Positions 3,642 through 25,360 of a stretch of 64,000 bases of DNA are shown here, one piece after another. The stretch is from NCBI GenBank assembly GCA_963641945.1, contig CAVIDW010000001.1, positions 31,136 to 95,135 on the forward strand, read 5' to 3'. The notes below the pieces were generated by a model. The model had not been told where the DNA came from and did not search any database. It saw nothing but the letters and a program-made list of their open reading frames with translations. The number at the start of each line of letters is the position of its first letter. Position 1 is the first letter of the stretch. Origin of the DNA: a bacterium (GTDB lineage Bacteria; Bacillota_I; Bacilli_A; RF39; UBA660). The position numbers and the translations under genes are program-made.

Positions 3642-4802
3642 TTAATCTAATTTTGCTCCGCAGTTACTACAGAATTTTCCTGTTCCTTTTGTATGGCATT
3701 CAGGACATTCTTTAGATTCTTCTTCTTTAATTTCAACAATTGGTTCTTCTGTTCTACCAAAGATTGTACCCATTTCTGGTTGTTGATTTCCTGGTTGATA
3801 TCCAGCTACATCTGATCCTTGATTTGCTGCATTCATCATACTTCCAGCTGCTCCATTTGCCATATTCATTCCCATGAATCCCATCATTGCTCCATTTGAA
3901 TTACTTGAAGCATTTCTTAAAGCATCAGCAGAAGCACTAGCCATTAATCCTGATTGTAAATTTTTATTTGAGAAAATAGTTGCTTCATCAATCTTATTAA
4001 CTTTTGTCATTGAATCATCAGTTAAATTAATATCTCCAATAGCAACATCTGTAATTTCTAATCCATAATTCTTTTTCCATGATTCATCTAAGCATACATT
4101 CATTTCATTTGAAATATCACTATTATATAAACCAATATCTCCAAAAGAAACTTTATTTTTTCTCATAACTATTGAAATTGCTTGAGTAACTTGTTCTACA
4201 AATTTAGCTTGTAATTGACTTCCAACAATTTCTTCATATGTAACAGTATCTTCTGGATTAGCTCCAATTACACTATTAACCAAAAGAATTGGGTCAGCTA
4301 CTTTAAATGCATATTCTCCAAAGAATGTAACTTCTAACATACCATATTTTTCATCAGTAATCTTTTTAGGCTGTGGTGAACCAAATTTATTTCCGGTAAT
4401 TGTTAATAAATTTACAAAGTAAACTCTTTGATCTTTAGCTGTTTGTCCACCATAAGTAAATCTTTTACCAATAGTTTTAAAAGTATCAATAATTCCTTTT
4501 CCTAAACCGCCTGTAAAAATACTTGGTTCGCTACTTGTATCATAATAAAAAGTTCCTGCTTCAGCTGTAAATTCTTTAATCTCTCCATTATCAATAATCA
4601 TCATTGCCATTCCTTGTGGAACTGCAATTGTACTACCATTTGAAATTATTCCTTCTGAAGGATTTTTGTTTCCTTCTCCATGATTTACTACTCCTTTTTG
4701 AATAATAACATTTTTTGCTATAGTTGGACAAGTTACAAATTCTTTAAATTGATCACCTAAAGCCGAAGTAGTAGCTCCAGATAATGCTTTAATTAATCCC
4801 AT
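3642..4802 (-). CDS. SPFH/band-7 family protein (YdjI-like) with C-terminal zinc ribbon
   Basis: 386 aa. N-terminus MGLIKA...LGDQFKEF and an internal GGLGKGIIDTFKTIGKRFTYGG...DQRVYFVN resemble B. subtilis YdjI. C-terminal CPECH...CSNCGAKL zinc ribbon. Confidence 0.55.
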   Translation of the reverse strand: MGLIKALSGATTSALGDQFKEFVTCPTIAKNVIIQKGVVNHGEGNKNPSEGIISNGSTIAVPQGMAMMIIDNGEIKEFTAEAGTFYYDTSSEPSIFTGGLGKGIIDTFKTIGKRFTYGGQTAKDQRVYFVNLLTITGNKFGSPQPKKITDEKYGMLEVTFFGEYAFKVADPILLVNSVIGANPEDTVTYEEIVGSQLQAKFVEQVTQAISIVMRKNKVSFGDIGLYNSDISNEMNVCLDESWKKNYGLEITDVAIGDINLTDDSMTKVNKIDEATIFSNKNLQSGLMASASADALRNASSNSNGAMMGFMGMNMANGAAGSMMNAANQGSDVAGYQPGNQQPEMGTIFGRTEEPIVEIKEEESKECPECHTKGTGKFCSNCGAKLD

Positions 4803-4904: not shown

Positions 4905-6083
4905 TTAAGCTTTTTTATCTATTTCTATTATTATTTGATATTTGTCATCTAAATCCATTTCAGATGTTTCAATTAATCTACTTACTTCATCTAAACTAGA
5001 TACAAATTTTCTAACCTTTCCTATTACTTTTGGTAAATTAACTTCTCCGTCTTCAGAAATTAAACTATCTGTTTCTTCAATTATTGTTTCTTTTTTCTTT
5101 TCGAATACTGGATTTTCTTCTTCTAACTCTTTTACTTCAAACTGATTTATTGATTGTGATGGAGTAAGTTCAATTGCTTCAATCGAATCTTCTAATTTAG
5201 TTTCTTCTTTTAGTTCCTCATGCATTTCGAATACTGGTTTTTCTTGTTTAATATTTTCTATTATATTTAAAGTATTAGTACTTTGAAATGGATTGATTAT
5301 TTCTCTATCATCTTTGTATTCTACAAGTTCCGATTTTTCATTATCTGGTTCTAATTTTTTTTGTTCATTTATATCTATTACTTGAGGCACATCTATTTTA
5401 ATTTCTTCTGTAGGCTTATTTTTCTGAGGATTTAAGAATAATTCAATATCTTTTGGAATATCAAAATGATTACTATCTTTATTTAAAATCATACTCACTT
5501 CATCTTCAGTTTGTTTAACTGTTAATTTTTCATTTATGATTCTATTTAATAAATTTATTTGTAAATCTTTATTACTTAAAGATAATAAAGTTCTAGCATG
5601 TCTTTCTGATATTTTGTTATATAATAATGCATCTTGAACTTCTTTAGGTAAGTTTAAAAGTCTTAATCTATTTGCAACAGAAGATTGGCTCACTCCAAGT
5701 TTTTGAGCTATATCATCTTGTGTGAATCCTCTATTCATTAGTTTCTTATATGATTGAGCTTCTTCAATGACAGTTAAATTTTTTCTTTGAAGATTTTCTA
5801 ATAAAGCTATTTCAGCACTTGTATCATCATCTGTGTTATTCATAATTGCTGGAATTCTTTTAAGACCAGCTAAACATGATGCTTTATATCTTCTTTCACC
5901 AGCAATAATTTCATATTTTTCTCCTATCTTTCTTACGACAATAGGTTGTATAACACCATATTTAATTATAGAATTAGCTAAATCATTTAATTCTTTTTCA
6001 TTAAATGCTAATCTTGGTTGAAATCTATTTGGTAGTATATCTTCTACTGGTATATATAAAACTTTATCTTTATTATCTTCCAT
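4905..6083 (-). CDS. parB: ParB/Spo0J/Noc-family partition protein with long acidic/Lys-rich C-terminal extension; no adjacent parA
   Basis: 392 aa. ParB N-domain motifs (RFQPR, IQPIVVR, GERRYKA) and an HTH (TQDDIAQKLGVSQSSVANRLRLL). About 150 aa of low-complexity sequence precede the C-terminus. Confidence 0.8.
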   Translation of the reverse strand: MEDNKDKVLYIPVEDILPNRFQPRLAFNEKELNDLANSIIKYGVIQPIVVRKIGEKYEIIAGERRYKASCLAGLKRIPAIMNNTDDDTSAEIALLENLQRKNLTVIEEAQSYKKLMNRGFTQDDIAQKLGVSQSSVANRLRLLNLPKEVQDALLYNKISERHARTLLSLSNKDLQINLLNRIINEKLTVKQTEDEVSMILNKDSNHFDIPKDIELFLNPQKNKPTEEIKIDVPQVIDINEQKKLEPDNEKSELVEYKDDREIINPFQSTNTLNIIENIKQEKPVFEMHEELKEETKLEDSIEAIELTPSQSINQFEVKELEEENPVFEKKKETIIEETDSLISEDGEVNLPKVIGKVRKFVSSLDEVSRLIETSEMDLDDKYQIIIEIDKKA

Positions 6084-21546: not shown

Positions 21547-24096
21547 ATGGATACTAATGAAAATGTTGATAATTCACAAGTTGTTAACAATGAAAATGAT
21601 TTTTCTGGTACATTTCATGAGAGAGATAGTCACAATGTAAATAATATAGTAGATGAAGTTAAGAGTTCTTTCTTAGATTATTCAATGAGTGTTATAACTT
21701 CTCGTGCTATTCCAGATTTAAGAGATGGTTTGAAACCGGTTCACAGAAGAATTCTTTGGTCTATGTATGAGGAAGGAAATACTCCTGATAAGCCTCACAG
21801 AAAATCAGCAACAACTGTTGGTAATGTTATGGGACATTATCATCCACATGGTGATAGTTCTATTTATGAAGCAATGGTTCGTTTAGCTCAAGATTTTAGC
21901 CAAAGATATATGTTGATTGATGGACATGGAAACTTTGGTAATATAGAAGGTGATGGTGCTGCTGCTTACCGTTATACTGAAGCAAGATTAGCTAAGATTT
22001 CTCTTGAATTATTAAGAGATATCAATAAAGATACTGTTGATATGGATGATAACTTTGATGTTACTAGAAAGGAACCTAAAGTTTTACCTTCTAGATTTCC
22101 AAATATTTTGGTTAATGGTTCAATGGGTATTGCAGTTGGTATGGCTACAAATATTCCTCCACATAATTTAAGAGAAGTTATTGATGGATGTATTGCTTAT
22201 ATTGATAATCCTGATATAGATGTTCTTGGATTAATGAATTATATTAAAGGTCCTGATTTTCCAACAGGTGGTATAATTCTTGGAAATTCCGGTATTAAGA
22301 AGGCATATGAAACAGGTAGGGGTAGTATTACAATAAGAAGTAAGGCAACTATTGAAGAACATAATAATCATAATTGTATTGTTATTTCTGAAGTTCCATA
22401 TGGTGTTAATACTATGGAATTAAAGAATAAGGTTGCAGAATTGGTTCATACAAAGGTAATTGATGGAATATCTGATTATCATACTGATTTAAAAGATGGT
22501 GTTAAGATTACAATTACTTTAAAGAAAGATGCTAATCCACAAGTTGTATTAAATAATCTATATAAACATACATCTTTCCAAATAAATTATGGAATTATAT
22601 TCCTTATGTTAGATGGATTAACTCCTAGAACACTTGGTTTAAAGGATATTATTTCAAAATATATTGATCATCAAAAAGTTGTTATTATTAGAAGAACAAG
22701 ATTTGACTTGGCTAAGGATGAAAAAAGAGTACATATTTTAAATGGATATAAGATAGCACAAGATAATATTGATGAAGTAATTAGAATTATTAAACAAGCT
22801 AAAAATGATGATGAAGCTAAAGCTAATTTAATGGAAAGATTTGGATTAGATTTAATTCAGTCTGAAGCTATTTTAGAGCTAAAATTAAGAAGATTAACTG
22901 GTCTAGAAAGAAGTAAGATAGAAGAAGAGTTAGCTAGCTTATTAAAGGAAATAGAGGAGTTAAAAGCTATATTAGCTTCTGAACAAAAAGTATTAGAAAT
23001 TATTAAAAATGAAATGCTAGAAATTAGAAATAAATATGGTGATGATAGAAGAACTGAGATTGATATGACTGCTGTTGAATATATCGAAGATGAGTCATTA
23101 ATACCTCAAGAAGAAATAATCGTTACTTTAACAAATAAGAATTATATTAAGAGAATTCCTAAGGATACTTATAAGGTTCAACATAGAGGTGGAGTTGGTA
23201 TTAAGGGTATGACTACTACTGATAATGACTTTGTTGAACAGTTAATTTCCTTAAATACTCATGATGACATATTATTCTTTACAAATAAAGGTAAGGTTTA
23301 TAGATTAAAAGGATATAAGATTCCAGAGTATTCTAGAACTGCTAAAGGTCTTCCAATTGTTAATTTATTGCAATTAGAGAAGGATGAAAAGATAAAAACT
23401 GTTATTAAAATATCTAGTAAAGAAGACTTTACAAACAAATGTTTGTTATTTACAACTAAAAATGGATTAATTAAGAGAACTGCTATTGCAGAATTTGAAA
23501 ATATTAGACAAACAGGTAAAATTGCTATTACTTTAAAAGATGATGATGAACTTATTTCAGTAAAAATGACTTCAGGTGATGATCAAGTTCTTATTTGTTC
23601 TTCTAAAGGAAGAATGGCTAGATTTAATGAGAATGAAATCAGAATAATGGGTAGAACAGCTTCTGGTGTTAGGGGAATAAATTTAACTGATGATATATGC
23701 GTAGGAGCTGAAATTTCTGAACTAGGAAAGTCATTATTAGTTGTTACTGAAAACGGATATGGTAAAAAGACTGCTATTGAAGAATATAGAGAAACTAAGC
23801 GTGGTAGTAAGGGAGTTAAAACTCTTAATATTACTGAAAAGAATGGTAATGTAGTAGGCTTCAAATCTACTGATGATAATAAAGATTTAATGATAATTAC
23901 AAATGATGGTGTTATTATAAGAATGGATGTTAAATCTATTTCAACAATGGGTAGAGTTACTAAAGGCGTTAGACTTATAAACTTAAAAGATAATAATAAG
24001 GTTGCTTCAATATCTATTCTTGAAAAGGAATTAGAAGAGGAAAATGATTCTTCAACAATTGAAAGTGTAGAACCTGTTAATGAAGAGAATGAGTAA
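21547..24096 (+). CDS. gyrA: DNA gyrase subunit A
   Basis: 849 aa. Active-site region (AAAYRYTEARL), C-terminal beta-pinwheel repeats, acidic tail. Confidence 0.97.
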   Translation: MDTNENVDNSQVVNNENDFSGTFHERDSHNVNNIVDEVKSSFLDYSMSVITSRAIPDLRDGLKPVHRRILWSMYEEGNTPDKPHRKSATTVGNVMGHYHPHGDSSIYEAMVRLAQDFSQRYMLIDGHGNFGNIEGDGAAAYRYTEARLAKISLELLRDINKDTVDMDDNFDVTRKEPKVLPSRFPNILVNGSMGIAVGMATNIPPHNLREVIDGCIAYIDNPDIDVLGLMNYIKGPDFPTGGIILGNSGIKKAYETGRGSITIRSKATIEEHNNHNCIVISEVPYGVNTMELKNKVAELVHTKVIDGISDYHTDLKDGVKITITLKKDANPQVVLNNLYKHTSFQINYGIIFLMLDGLTPRTLGLKDIISKYIDHQKVVIIRRTRFDLAKDEKRVHILNGYKIAQDNIDEVIRIIKQAKNDDEAKANLMERFGLDLIQSEAILELKLRRLTGLERSKIEEELASLLKEIEELKAILASEQKVLEIIKNEMLEIRNKYGDDRRTEIDMTAVEYIEDESLIPQEEIIVTLTNKNYIKRIPKDTYKVQHRGGVGIKGMTTTDNDFVEQLISLNTHDDILFFTNKGKVYRLKGYKIPEYSRTAKGLPIVNLLQLEKDEKIKTVIKISSKEDFTNKCLLFTTKNGLIKRTAIAEFENIRQTGKIAITLKDDDELISVKMTSGDDQVLICSSKGRMARFNENEIRIMGRTASGVRGINLTDDICVGAEISELGKSLLVVTENGYGKKTAIEEYRETKRGSKGVKTLNITEKNGNVVGFKSTDDNKDLMIITNDGVIIRMDVKSISTMGRVTKGVRLINLKDNNKVASISILEKELEEENDSSTIESVEPVNEENE

Positions 24097-24118: not shown

Positions 24119-25190
24119 TGTTCCACATGAAACAATTATTTCCCGGGAAATAAAAAATGTTTAAAAAATATTTCCCGGGAAATATTTTTGTATGTTCCAC
24201 GTGAAACATATTGTTATTAAGTTATTTTTATTGGCTGTTCATAATTTAAATCGAGATGATATATTATATGTTATTTCATTTCTCGATACGTTTTATCAAT
24301 TGTTAAATTTTAATTAAATTTTATTGTTTATAATATAATGTTTCACGTGAAATATATTGTGGATAAGTATTATTAAAGATACCAAATATATATTAGTATT
24401 AATTTGATTGTTATATTCTTTTATAATTCAATTTTTCATTTTCACTTTCTAAGAAGTGATTTTTCCTTGTAATTACGGCACTTTGTATACTTTTTATATA
24501 CTATTTTAATTTTAAAATATGTATTTATTTGTATGTTCCACGTGAAACATGTGTGGATAAATAGCTAAAACGTGTTAAATTTTAAGAAAATATTTAATAT
24601 TTAGTTTAAATTTATTATTTTGAGTTTGTATTTTTAATTAAATTTTTTATAGGTTTCACGTGGAACATATTGTTAATATGATTATATGTTAATAAATATT
24701 TTTTTTTAATCATTATTTATATTAAAATTTTTTTCTTTTAAATATATGTTTATCCCAGTAATTTCGGTGTTTTTTTATATTTTTGTAAAAGAATTTTAAT
24801 AAATATATTTAATGTTCCACGTGAAACATGATGTTAATAACTTTTTAAAAAATTTATAATTTATTTTTATTTTATTAAAAAAGATGTTAAATATTATATT
24901 CAATAACAATTTTTATGTTTCACGTGGAACATTGTGTTGAAAACTTAATATTTTTGTTAAATATACTTAATTATTGCCTATTATTTTATTAATTTTATTA
25001 AATATTTTTTACAATTTATAATATGTTCCACGTGAAACATATTGTTAATAAGTTGCGTTTATTTGTTATTTTTAATTTAAATTGAGATTATATATTATTT
25101 TATTTCTTGATGCATTTTAGAAATTATTGATATATTTTATAAAATAAAAAGTGTTAATTGTTAATGTTTCACGTGGAACATTGTTGATAA
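24119..25190. repeat. intergenic array of nine 18-bp near-palindromes ATGTTYCACGTGRAACAT, each followed by a DnaA-box-like 9-mer
   Basis: Copies at 24119, 24193, 24339, 24533, 24651, 24812, 24915, 25023 and 25164, in alternating orientation. The downstream 9-mers are TGTGGATAA (perfect DnaA-box complement, twice), TGTTGATAA and TGTTAATAA (three times). The copy at 24119 has a degenerate CACATG core and is followed by the CCCGGG palindrome instead of a box. No ORF of 60 aa or more across the region. Confidence 0.8.
24140..24186. repeat. two copies of 14-bp perfect palindrome ATTTCCCGGGAAAT
   Basis: 24140-24153 and 24173-24186, 33 bp apart. The GC-rich CCCGGG core is unusual in this AT-rich genome. 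Confidence 0.7.
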
Positions 25191-25267
25191 GTTTGTAAAT
25201 TTAAGAAAAATTGTGTAAAAAGTTAGATTTAATTGTTGATTTTGTGTTTATTTTGTTGTAAAATTTG

Positions 25268-25346
25268 TTTGTGCAACAATATGTGCATGAACCAGGTCAG
25301 AATTGGAAGATAGCAGCCTTAAATGTAATTATTGTGTGCACTTTTT
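25268..25346 (+). ncRNA. ffs: small SRP RNA (4.5S/scRNA-type) candidate
   Basis: The domain IV signature CCAGGUCAG...GGAAG.UAGCAGCC sits in a GC-richer hairpin (GTGCAAC...GTGTGCAC) ending in T6. An extended -10 (TGTTGTAAAAT) lies upstream. In B. subtilis scr lies next to tadA/dnaX. Confidence 0.6.
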
Positions 25347-25360
25347 TAATGGTGTAAAAA

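What the first reader, a model, noticed from the sequence alone, without database searches (positions are those of the whole stretch)
24119..25190. The array palindrome is a near-match to the parS consensus
The canonical Firmicute parS is TGTTNCACGTGAAACA. The repeated core here, TGTTCCACGTGAAACA (within ATGTTCCACGTGAAACAT), satisfies it, and the alternate form TGTTTCACGTGGAACA is its reverse complement. The array could therefore be a cluster of about eight parS sites within 10 kb of oriC, each paired with a DnaA-box-like element. parS sites are normally dispersed as single copies, so such density and pairing would be unusual. It would link the ParB loading zone to DnaA-binding sites. This is a separate functional hypothesis from the DnaA-titration idea.
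Basis: partly seen in the sequence, partly recalled or inferred. Interest (0 to 1): 0.8.

Follow-up and report, generated by a model that had tools for sequence, protein, structure and literature searches.

The report
Dense parS centromere array after gyrA
About 9 kb from the replication origin of an uncultured gut bacterium, a 1-kb non-coding gap holds nine chromosome-segregation (parS) sites, two sites for the related protein Noc, and DnaA-type boxes beside most parS sites; the arrangement recurs across a whole clade and is an unusually compact variant of a known kind of bacterial centromere.

Summary
Nine parS-consensus palindromes (not about eight) lie at 24119-25180, and there are none elsewhere in the 64 kb (0.05 expected by chance). 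The array fills the gap between gyrA and the SRP RNA gene, about 9-10 kb from the GC-skew minimum at dnaA.

Of 80 related genomes (uncultured Bacilli, gyrA 70-99% identical), 74 carry parS at the same place. The median is 4 sites, the maximum 11, and the density is about 8.6 sites/kb.

Two things were missed in this finding. First, the array holds two perfect Noc-binding sites, and such sites are interleaved with parS in 51 of the 80 relatives. Second, the only ParB-family gene in the window is Noc-type, has no membrane helix, and has no soj or spo0J beside it.

The parS and NBS half-sites never form chimeras (285 pure parS, 112 pure NBS, 0 mixed). This points to two separate binders, but I could not find the parS-specific ParB.

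The DnaA-box pairing is real here: 6 of 9 parS have a box with at most 2 mismatches, and both perfect boxes in the window lie in the array. It occurs in only 16 of 81 genomes, in two orientations.

Verdict: a real, conserved, very dense centromere array, and a new variant of a known kind. Coupling to DnaA is plausible but unproven.

The parts
24119..24134 (.). parS 1 (TGTTCCACATGAAACA, 1 mismatch in the central CG), 23 nt after the gyrA stop
   Evidence: restored to CACGTG in the 99%-related L002
24137..24152 (.). Noc-binding site 1, perfect TATTTCCCGGGAAATA
   Evidence: consensus from PMC7383237 and PMC8429893
24169..24184 (.). Noc-binding site 2, perfect TATTTCCCGGGAAATA
   Evidence: 97-100% conserved in L002 and L003
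24193..24208 (.). parS 2 (perfect); flank TGTTATTAA at 24212-24220 (3 mismatches to a DnaA box)
24339..24354 (.). parS 3 (TGTTTCACGTGAAATA)
24358..24366 (-). perfect DnaA box TTATCCACA, 3 bp after parS 3
24534..24549 (.). parS 4 (perfect)
24552..24560 (-). perfect DnaA box TTATCCACA, 2 bp after parS 4
24652..24667 (.). parS 5 (GGTTTCACGTGGAACA); flanks TGTTAATAT at 24671-24679 and TGTTAATAA at 24687-24695
24813..24828 (.). parS 6 (perfect)
24832..24840 (-). relaxed DnaA box TTATTAACA, 3 bp after parS 6; the same variant occurs upstream of dnaA
24916..24931 (.). parS 7 (perfect on the - strand); flank TGTTGAAAA at 24935-24943
25024..25039 (.). parS 8 (perfect)
25043..25051 (-). relaxed DnaA box TTATTAACA, 3 bp after parS 8
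25165..25180 (.). parS 9 (perfect on the - strand)
25182..25190 (-). DnaA box TTATCAACA (1 mismatch; the form found twice upstream of dnaA), 1 bp after parS 9
4905..6083 (-). the only ParB-family gene in the window: a Noc-type CTPase clamp (specificity residues Q-R-N-R, GERRY motif). It has no N-terminal membrane helix, a long acidic linker and a conserved C-terminal domain. It is the likely binder of the two NBS.
14876..15190 (.). probable oriC (dnaA-upstream region at the GC-skew minimum) with TTATCAACA x2 and TTATTAACA x2; used as the reference for origin distance and for the local DnaA-box variants
21547..24096 (+). gyrA, left boundary of the array locus
25263..25357 (+). small SRP RNA, right boundary of the array locus

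Best explanation
The interval is the chromosomal centromere of this organism. Nine parS palindromes are packed into 1.06 kb of non-coding DNA between gyrA and the SRP RNA gene, about 9-10 kb clockwise of oriC.

Inferred mechanism, following the established ParB-CTP clamp model. ParB dimers nucleate at each parS, bind CTP, close into clamps and slide onto the flanking DNA. Nine loading sites within about 1 kb would give a high clamp flux from a single point. This would build one compact partition complex that marks the origin region and recruits SMC.

The same gap holds two perfect Noc-binding sites. The Noc-type clamp encoded at 4905-6083 is the likely binder, so two paralogous clamps would be loaded side by side.

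In this species group most parS sites also carry a DnaA-box-like 9-mer 1-3 bp away on the origin-distal side. The most likely role of the boxes is local DnaA binding. That binding would either titrate DnaA, as the oriC-proximal DnaA-box clusters of B. subtilis do, or be modulated by the neighbouring ParB complex.

What is shown: the sequence identity of the sites, their restriction to this locus, and their conservation across a clade while spacers decay. What is inferred: which proteins bind, and every functional consequence. I put about 0.8 on 'parS centromere array' and about 0.45 on a functional role for the DnaA boxes.
For: - Nine consensus sites against 0.05 expected, and none elsewhere in 64 kb.
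- The same locus (gyrA - array - SRP RNA - tadA - dnaX) carries at least 1 parS in 74 of 80 related genomes and at least 2 in 65 of 80. The median density is 8.6 sites/kb.
- A logo of 328 sites shows an invariant 18-bp palindrome and no information in the flanks.
- Window versus L003 identity: parS 90.7%, NBS 96.9%, box segment 83.5%, spacers 66.6%, plus gain and loss of whole units.
- No parS or NBS lies in the 21 kb on the other side of oriC in a relative.
- The window has two perfect NBS. The only ParB-family protein matches Noc structures best (203 bits against 158 for Spo0J). It carries Noc-type specificity residues Q/R/N/R, and all 120 orthologs are QKNR or QRNR. The determinants are those defined in PMC7383237.
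- Site classes are discrete: 285 pure parS, 112 pure NBS, 0 chimeras.
- DnaA boxes with at most 1 mismatch in 66 arrays number 64, against 17.8±4 in shuffles. Perfect boxes number 9 against 0.6.
- 54 of those 64 boxes lie 0-7 bp from a parS. 16% of parS have such a neighbour, against 5% of NBS.
- The only two perfect DnaA boxes in the window are in the array. The relaxed variants used there also occur upstream of dnaA.
Against: - No canonical ParB (R173/G201 type) and no ParA was found in the 64-kb window, in the 6-kb flanks of 80 related loci, or within 10 kb of the noc-like gene in relatives. The parS binder is therefore assumed, not seen.
- The DnaA-box pairing occurs in only 16 of 81 genomes.
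- In the window only 3 of 9 boxes are within 1 mismatch of the consensus.
- Array units arise by duplication and the genomes are related, so site counts and p-values overstate independence.
- Everything is in silico and the organisms are uncultured.
Confidence: 0.72

Rival explanations
1. One protein serves both site classes. The clade has lost soj-spo0J. The Noc-type protein next to rsmG is its only ParB-family member and acts as the centromere-binding protein on both parS and NBS.
For: It is the only ParB-family gene in 64 kb and in relatives' neighbourhoods. It lacks the membrane helix that defines Noc function (PMC8429893). It has N instead of the near-invariant K at position 184. Both site classes sit together at the place where a centromere is expected.
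Against: Q173 and R201 are the published NBS-specifying residues, and Noc proteins do not bind parS (PMC7383237). Among about 400 sites there is not one parS/NBS chimera or hybrid half-site, as expected if two specific readers each constrain their own sites. The parS sequence is identical to the pan-bacterial consensus read by canonical ParB.
Confidence: 0.15
2. The DnaA-box-like flanks are passengers. They are part of the sequence unit that was duplicated when the array expanded, and they have no DnaA-related function. The array is a plain parS/NBS centromere.
For: There is no flank conservation in the clade-wide logo. 65 of 81 genomes have no adjacent box. Most window boxes have 2-3 mismatches. 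Two 77-nt units in the window are 86% identical, which shows segmental duplication (family D3).
Against: Boxes abut parS in two different intrinsic orientations in different lineages, which implies at least two origins. The offset varies by 1-3 bp while the motif is kept. The box segment is more conserved than the spacers (83.5% against 66.6%). The enrichment is 3.6-fold over shuffles, and 84% of boxes lie within 7 bp of a parS. The same variants occur in the dnaA-upstream region.
Confidence: 0.35
3. The locus is primarily a DnaA element, either a datA/DBC-like titration cluster or an auxiliary part of oriC. On this view the parS palindromes are secondary.
For: The only perfect TTATCCACA boxes in 64 kb are here. 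Six relaxed boxes all face the same way. The region is very AT-rich (19% GC). oriC-proximal DnaA-box clusters restrain initiation in B. subtilis (PMC3245932).
Against: What is conserved across the clade is parS and NBS, not the boxes. The GC-skew minimum and the switch in gene orientation are at dnaA, 9 kb away, where boxes also cluster. There are only three boxes within 1 mismatch.
Confidence: 0.07
4. The repeats are selfish or structural DNA (REP/MITE-like palindromes, terminators, a CRISPR-like array, or an integrated plasmid or phage centromere).
For: The repeats are short palindromes in an AT-rich gap. Copy number varies between close relatives. MAG assemblies break there.
Against: The repeats are confined to one syntenic locus across at least 74 genomes. 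There are no terminator-like sites and no Rfam match in the array. Spacing is irregular. There is no similarity to any plasmid or phage record. The match to two independently defined protein-binding consensus sequences is exact.
Confidence: 0.02

Closest known systems
Bacillus subtilis parS / Spo0J(ParB)-SMC origin organisation
   Same: The 16-bp consensus is identical. The sites are origin-proximal. The presumed role is ParB-CTP clamp loading and SMC recruitment (PMC3245932, PMC7333895).
   Different: B. subtilis has eight origin-proximal sites spread over a large region, mostly inside genes. Here nine sites sit in a single 1-kb intergenic gap. No soj-spo0J operon lies next to noc.
Corynebacterium glutamicum parS cluster (10 sites in 35 kb, 73 kb from oriC)
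   Same: It is a multi-site, mostly intergenic cluster that acts as one centromere and as the tip of chromosome folding (PMC7083940).
   Different: The array here is about 30-fold denser (one site per 118 bp against one per 3.5 kb). It is interleaved with NBS and DnaA boxes. It occurs in a Firmicute lineage.
Noc-NBS nucleoid occlusion system (B. subtilis, S. aureus)
   Same: The NBS are perfect. The protein has Q173/R201-type specificity residues and CTP-binding motifs, and it is encoded next to rsmG (PMC7383237, PMC8429893).
   Different: The NBS are concentrated inside the centromere rather than only scattered. [quoted passage not shown] It carries an acidic insertion of about 190 aa. It scores below the NCBIfam Noc cut-off.
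DnaA binding at the Caulobacter crescentus centromere (Mera et al. 2014, as reviewed in PMC6399470)
   Same: DnaA boxes lie within the parS region, linking the initiator to the centromere.
   Different: The lineage is unrelated. Here a box abuts individual parS sites at 0-7 bp, is repeated along an array, and is present in only some lineages. No binding data exist.
B. subtilis oriC-proximal DnaA-box clusters (DBCs)
   Same: They are origin-proximal clusters of DnaA boxes outside oriC that restrain initiation and act synergistically with Spo0J (PMC3245932).
   Different: In B. subtilis the DBCs and the parS sites are separate loci. Here the two are fused into one repeat unit.
ParA-less ParB-parS-SMC systems (S. 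pneumoniae, S. aureus)
   Same: No ParA is encoded at the origin-proximal par/noc locus (PMC7333895).
   Different: Those species have a few dispersed parS sites and an identified ParB. Here the ParB gene itself was not found.

Membership tests
chromosomal parS (ParB centromere site) | 16-bp palindrome matching TGTTNCACGTGAAACA | tested here: met
   9 sites with at most 1 mismatch to TGTTNCACGTGNAACA; 0.05 expected
chromosomal parS (ParB centromere site) | origin-proximal location | tested here: met
   8.9-10.0 kb from the dnaA-upstream GC-skew minimum
chromosomal parS (ParB centromere site) | sites conserved in related genomes while the surrounding non-coding DNA diverges | tested here: met
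   74 of 80 loci; parS 90.7% against spacers 66.6% identity
chromosomal parS (ParB centromere site) | a cognate ParB with parS-type specificity residues (R173, G201) encoded in the genome | tested here: inconclusive
   None in the 64-kb window, the 80 locus flanks or the relatives' noc neighbourhood. A metagenome hunt found only other taxa.
chromosomal parS (ParB centromere site) | ParB binding and spreading at the sites | not testable with these tools
   needs ChIP-seq or in vitro binding
Noc / NBS system | 16-bp NBS TATTTCCCGGGAAATA | tested here: met
   two perfect copies in the window; 112 pure NBS in related loci
Noc / NBS system | specificity residues Q173, K/R179 or K184, R201 | tested here: met
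   Q-R-N-R in the window protein; QKNR or QRNR in 120 of 120 orthologs (PMC7383237)
Noc / NBS system | score above the curated cut-off of NCBIfam TIGR04285 (nucleoid_noc) | tested here: not met
   270.8 bits against a cut-off of 315; it is the best-scoring family but covers only profile positions 1-216 of 255
Noc / NBS system | N-terminal amphipathic membrane-targeting helix | tested here: not met
   The protein starts at the residue equivalent to Noc residue ~24. There are only 4 codons upstream to a stop. All orthologs start MEENKDK… (PMC8429893).
Noc / NBS system | NBS scattered around the chromosome | tested here: inconclusive
   Both window NBS are in the array. In relatives 17 of 129 NBS lie more than 1 kb from any parS. 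Genome-wide distribution is unknown.
DnaA-box cluster (DBC/datA-like) | several consensus or near-consensus TTATCCACA boxes in a short non-coding stretch | tested here: met
   2 perfect, 1 one-mismatch and 3 two-mismatch boxes in 1 kb, all in the same orientation
DnaA-box cluster (DBC/datA-like) | conservation of the boxes in related genomes | tested here: not met
   adjacent boxes in only 16 of 81 genomes
DnaA-box cluster (DBC/datA-like) | DnaA binding | not testable with these tools
   needs EMSA or ChIP
oriC | location at the GC-skew and gene-orientation switch next to dnaA | tested here: not met
   the switch is at about 15.0 kb; the array is at 24.1-25.2 kb, within co-oriented genes
plasmid-type centromere repeat array (e.g. 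F sopC) | regular tandem iteration of one unit; plasmid or phage ancestry | tested here: not met
   irregular 74-195 bp spacing; no plasmid or phage similarity. Some relatives (L052 117-bp unit, L038 39-bp unit) are regular.

The most novel reading that the evidence does not exclude
The gyrA-proximal array is a three-way origin hub. A canonical ParB and a Noc paralog without a membrane helix are co-loaded as CTP clamps from interleaved parS and NBS sites. In several lineages DnaA boxes have been recruited directly beside parS. DnaA occupancy and ParB loading would then influence each other in cis. This would replace the Soj/ParA route that links segregation to initiation control in Bacillus.
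Probability: 0.2. Interest if true: 0.8.

Novelty: new variant of a known kind. Interest (0 to 1): 0.6.

Why it matters
Why bacteria keep many clustered parS sites when one is enough is an open question; it is stated as such in PMC7333895. This clade offers an extreme natural case, with up to 11 sites at about 100-bp spacing in a single gap.

Three features make it useful:
- Sites for the paralogous Noc clamp are interleaved with parS, and the two site classes are kept strictly separate.
- DnaA boxes have been repeatedly recruited next to parS.
- The Noc-type protein lacks the membrane helix thought to define Noc function.

These give directly testable predictions. Two related CTP clamps may share or compete for the same stretch of DNA. 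A bound DnaA may act as a roadblock or partner for ParB loading. NBS-binding proteins may have roles other than nucleoid occlusion.

There is also a practical consequence. The repeats break MAG assemblies at a predictable spot next to gyrA.

Tried and rejected
1. Searches for a second ParB-family gene all found only the Noc-type gene. I used phmmer and a profile built from 120 orthologs against all window ORFs and against ORFs of 80 related loci. I also inspected 10-kb neighbourhoods of the noc-like gene in relatives.
2. I tried to extend the view beyond the window ends by exact-protein look-up. Only short contigs came back.
3. I scanned metagenome contigs for an AT-rich ParB-type HTH pattern. 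It returned 120 loci from a truncated scan. The lowest-GC candidate (L100) turned out to belong to Tyzzerella / [Clostridium] colinum relatives, so the clade's ParB was not found.
4. I looked up the QRNR variant in the supplements of Jalal et al.; it is not listed.
5. The three unannotated ORFs between rpmH and dnaA have no Pfam or NCBIfam hit and do not resemble ParB.
6. Rfam, terminator and promoter scans of the array found nothing beyond chance.
7. Similarity searches against plasmids and phages found nothing.
8. I rejected the idea that the DnaA-like flank is a symmetric extension of the ParB site, because the boxes occur on one side only.
9. I considered that 'TTTTCCACA' boxes in some relatives are degenerate parS half-sites (7 of 9 identical). 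This cannot explain TGTGGATAA or TGTTGATAA in the window lineage, which share only 4 of 9 positions with a half-site.
10. Livny et al. 2007 is not held in the library.

Full report
**Context.** The window is the origin region of a 24% GC uncultured member of the Bacilli. An exact protein look-up places it in MAG GCA_963651815.1. Relatives are labelled uncultured Bacilli, 'Tenericutes', Clostridium sp. CAG:302 or Candidatus Scybalousia. Cumulative GC skew is lowest, and gene orientation switches, at about 15.0 kb, just upstream of dnaA (15191-16591).

The gene order is rsmG, a ParB-family gene (4905-6083, minus strand), …, rpmH, three unannotated ORFs, [oriC], dnaA, dnaN, comK-like, recF, gyrB, gyrA (21547-24096). 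After gyrA comes a 1.17-kb non-coding gap, then the small SRP RNA (25263-25357), tadA and dnaX. The finding lies in that gap.

**The observation.** A search for the Firmicute parS consensus with up to two mismatches finds nine sites, all between 24119 and 25180. There are none elsewhere in 64 kb, and 0.05 matches are expected by chance.

Seven sites read TGTTCCACGTGAAACA exactly on one strand or the other. The remaining two are the first site, which has CACATG in the centre, and the third, which ends AAATA. The fifth begins GG on the + strand and so has one mismatch. The repeat is really an 18-bp palindrome, ATGTTYCACGTGRAACAT. Spacing is irregular, from 74 to 195 bp. The array has no Rfam match, no terminator-like sites and no excess of promoter-like sites. 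It has no similarity to plasmid or phage records.

**What was missed.** Between the first and second parS lie two perfect copies of TATTTCCCGGGAAATA (24137-24152 and 24169-24184). This is the 16-bp Noc-binding site of B. subtilis and S. aureus (PMC7383237, PMC8429893, PMC5540599).

**Conservation.** A gyrA-based scan of one genome per species returned 80 related loci with gyrA 70-99% identical.
- 74 of them have at least one parS immediately downstream of gyrA, and 65 have at least two.
- The median is 4, the maximum 11, the median density 8.6 sites/kb and the median spacing 128 bp.
- Several of the loci without parS are contigs that end right after gyrA.
- 52 loci also have NBS, and 51 have both. 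41 of 129 NBS lie within 30 bp of a parS.
- The synteny gyrA - array - SRP RNA - tadA - dnaX holds throughout. Part of the array sometimes sits behind the SRP RNA or behind tadA.
- A logo of 328 parS sites shows the 18-bp palindrome as essentially invariant and the flanks as uninformative.
- Between the window and L003 (gyrA 97%), parS positions are 90.7% identical, NBS 96.9% and spacers 66.6%. Whole units have been gained and lost.
- No parS or NBS occurs in the 21 kb on the other side of oriC in a relative.

This is the signature of protein-binding sites under selection in a rapidly turning-over array. It is not the signature of selfish repeats.

**Who binds.** The window encodes one ParB-family protein, a result checked by Pfam, phmmer and a family profile.
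- It matches solved Noc structures better than Spo0J/ParB structures (203 against 158 bits).
- Its best NCBIfam family is nucleoid_noc, but at 270.8 bits it falls below the cut-off of 315.
- At the four positions that Jalal et al. showed to set parS versus NBS specificity (ParB R173/G201; Noc Q173, K179, K184, R201) it reads Q, R, N, R. All 120 orthologs read QKNR or QRNR.
- It is therefore predicted to read NBS, not parS.
- It lacks the N-terminal roughly 22 residues of Noc, including the 10-residue amphipathic helix needed for membrane binding and nucleoid occlusion (PMC8429893).
- It carries an acidic insertion of about 190 residues before a conserved C-terminal domain.
- No soj or spo0J lies beside it in the window or in relatives.

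Typing of half-sites over all loci gives 285 pure parS, 112 pure NBS and no parS/NBS chimera or hybrid half-site. Two discrete, separately maintained site classes argue for two specific readers. I therefore expect a canonical ParB elsewhere in the genome, but I could not find it. This is the main gap in the argument.

**The DnaA-box pairing.** In the window the sequence 1-3 bp after the 16-mer, always on the origin-distal side, is as follows:

| Flank sequence | Copies | Mismatches to TGTGGATAA |
|---|---|---|
| TGTGGATAA | 2 | 0 |
| TGTTGATAA | 1 | 1 |
| TGTTAATAA | 2 | 2 |
| TGTTGAAAA | 1 | 2 |
| TGTTATTAA, TGTTAATAT | 1 each | 3 |

The first parS is followed by an NBS instead. The two perfect boxes are the only TTATCCACA in the whole window. 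The relaxed forms TTATCAACA and TTATTAACA are the ones that cluster upstream of dnaA.

Across 66 arrays, boxes with at most one mismatch number 64 against 17.8±4 in shuffles, and perfect boxes number 9 against 0.6. 54 of the 64 lie within 7 bp of a parS. 16% of parS have such a neighbour, against 5% of NBS.

The pairing is found in only 16 of 81 genomes, in two intrinsic orientations. The ACA end of the box faces parS in the window, L002, L003, L051, L056 and L061. The TTAT end faces parS in L018, L021, L024, L027, L029, L040 and L078. It is therefore not a defining feature of the array, although it appears to have arisen more than once.

Three caveats apply. Units duplicate, so copies are not independent. 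The genomes are related. Some 'TTTTCCACA' boxes are also close to a parS half-site.

**Mechanism.** I take the array to be the chromosomal centromere. On the established ParB-CTP clamp model, nine loading sites in about 1 kb would feed clamps from effectively one point. This would build a compact partition complex about 9 kb from oriC that recruits SMC. ParA-less ParB-parS-SMC systems are known (PMC7333895). Noc-type clamps would load from the adjacent NBS into the same DNA.

DnaA bound next to parS could be titrated, as at the oriC-proximal DnaA-box clusters of B. subtilis, which act synergistically with Spo0J (PMC3245932). Alternatively it could interact with centromere function, as reported for Caulobacter (Mera et al., reviewed in PMC6399470). 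S. aureus Noc restrains initiation through DnaA by an unknown route (PMC5540599). None of these steps is shown here.

**Comparison and novelty.** Clustered chromosomal parS sites are known. C. glutamicum has ten in 35 kb (PMC7083940), and up to 20-23 are reported near some origins (PMC7333895). The statement that parS sites are 'normally single and dispersed' is therefore only partly right.

The new points are:
- the density, about 30-fold that of Corynebacterium;
- the confinement to one intergenic gap conserved across a clade;
- the interleaving with NBS;
- the Noc-type protein without a membrane helix, and the absence of soj-spo0J at the usual place;
- the lineage-specific fusion of DnaA boxes to parS.

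I found no description of such an arrangement in five full-text searches. I rate it a new variant of a known kind, with interest 0.6.

Noticed in passing
window 24137-24152 and 24169-24184: Two perfect Noc-binding sites (TATTTCCCGGGAAATA) sit between parS 1 and parS 2. They are the only NBS-like sequences in 64 kb. NBS are interleaved with parS in 51 of 80 related loci.
   Followed up: yes
window 4905-6083 (-): This is the only ParB-family gene. It has Noc-type specificity residues (Q-R-N-R), no N-terminal membrane-targeting helix, an acidic insertion of about 190 aa and a conserved C-terminal domain. It lies next to rsmG with no soj or spo0J beside it, and the same holds in relatives.
   Followed up: yes
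L052 8481-9386; L038 7857-8145: Some relatives have regular tandem versions of the array. L052 has a 117-bp unit carrying one parS and one NBS (5-6 copies). L038 has parS every 39 bp (8 copies, running into the contig end).
   Followed up: partly
window 14876-15190: The probable oriC upstream of dnaA has no perfect TTATCCACA. It has repeated ATGTTAACTTATCAACA and TTGTTAATAA motifs. The dnaA-dnaN gap is only 67 bp.
   Followed up: partly
window 17930-18424 (+): A ComK-family ORF (Pfam E = 4.5e-45) is inserted between dnaN and recF, in a genome that also encodes sporulation genes (BofA, SpoVT, and SpoIIR in relatives).
   Followed up: no
window 12365-14875 (-): Three ORFs (140, 210 and 382 aa) between rpmH and dnaA have no Pfam or NCBIfam match. 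Relatives have a single 490-aa unannotated ORF at this position.
   Followed up: partly
L001 (starts about 430 nt before tadA); L008, L022, L035, L038, L051, L053, L064, L073, L079: Many MAG contigs end inside or at the edge of the array. The repeats appear to break short-read assemblies at this locus.
   Followed up: no
window 3642-4802 (-): An SPFH/Band-7 family gene lies directly downstream of the noc-like gene. The pairing is conserved in relatives (L084, L085).
   Followed up: no
L018, L021, L024, L027 position 3923; L018 11409; L041 11267 and others: Single NBS occur at conserved positions inside coding regions upstream (the gyrB/recF area) and about 2.5 kb downstream (the dnaX area) of the arrays in several relatives. 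NBS are therefore not restricted to the array.
   Followed up: no
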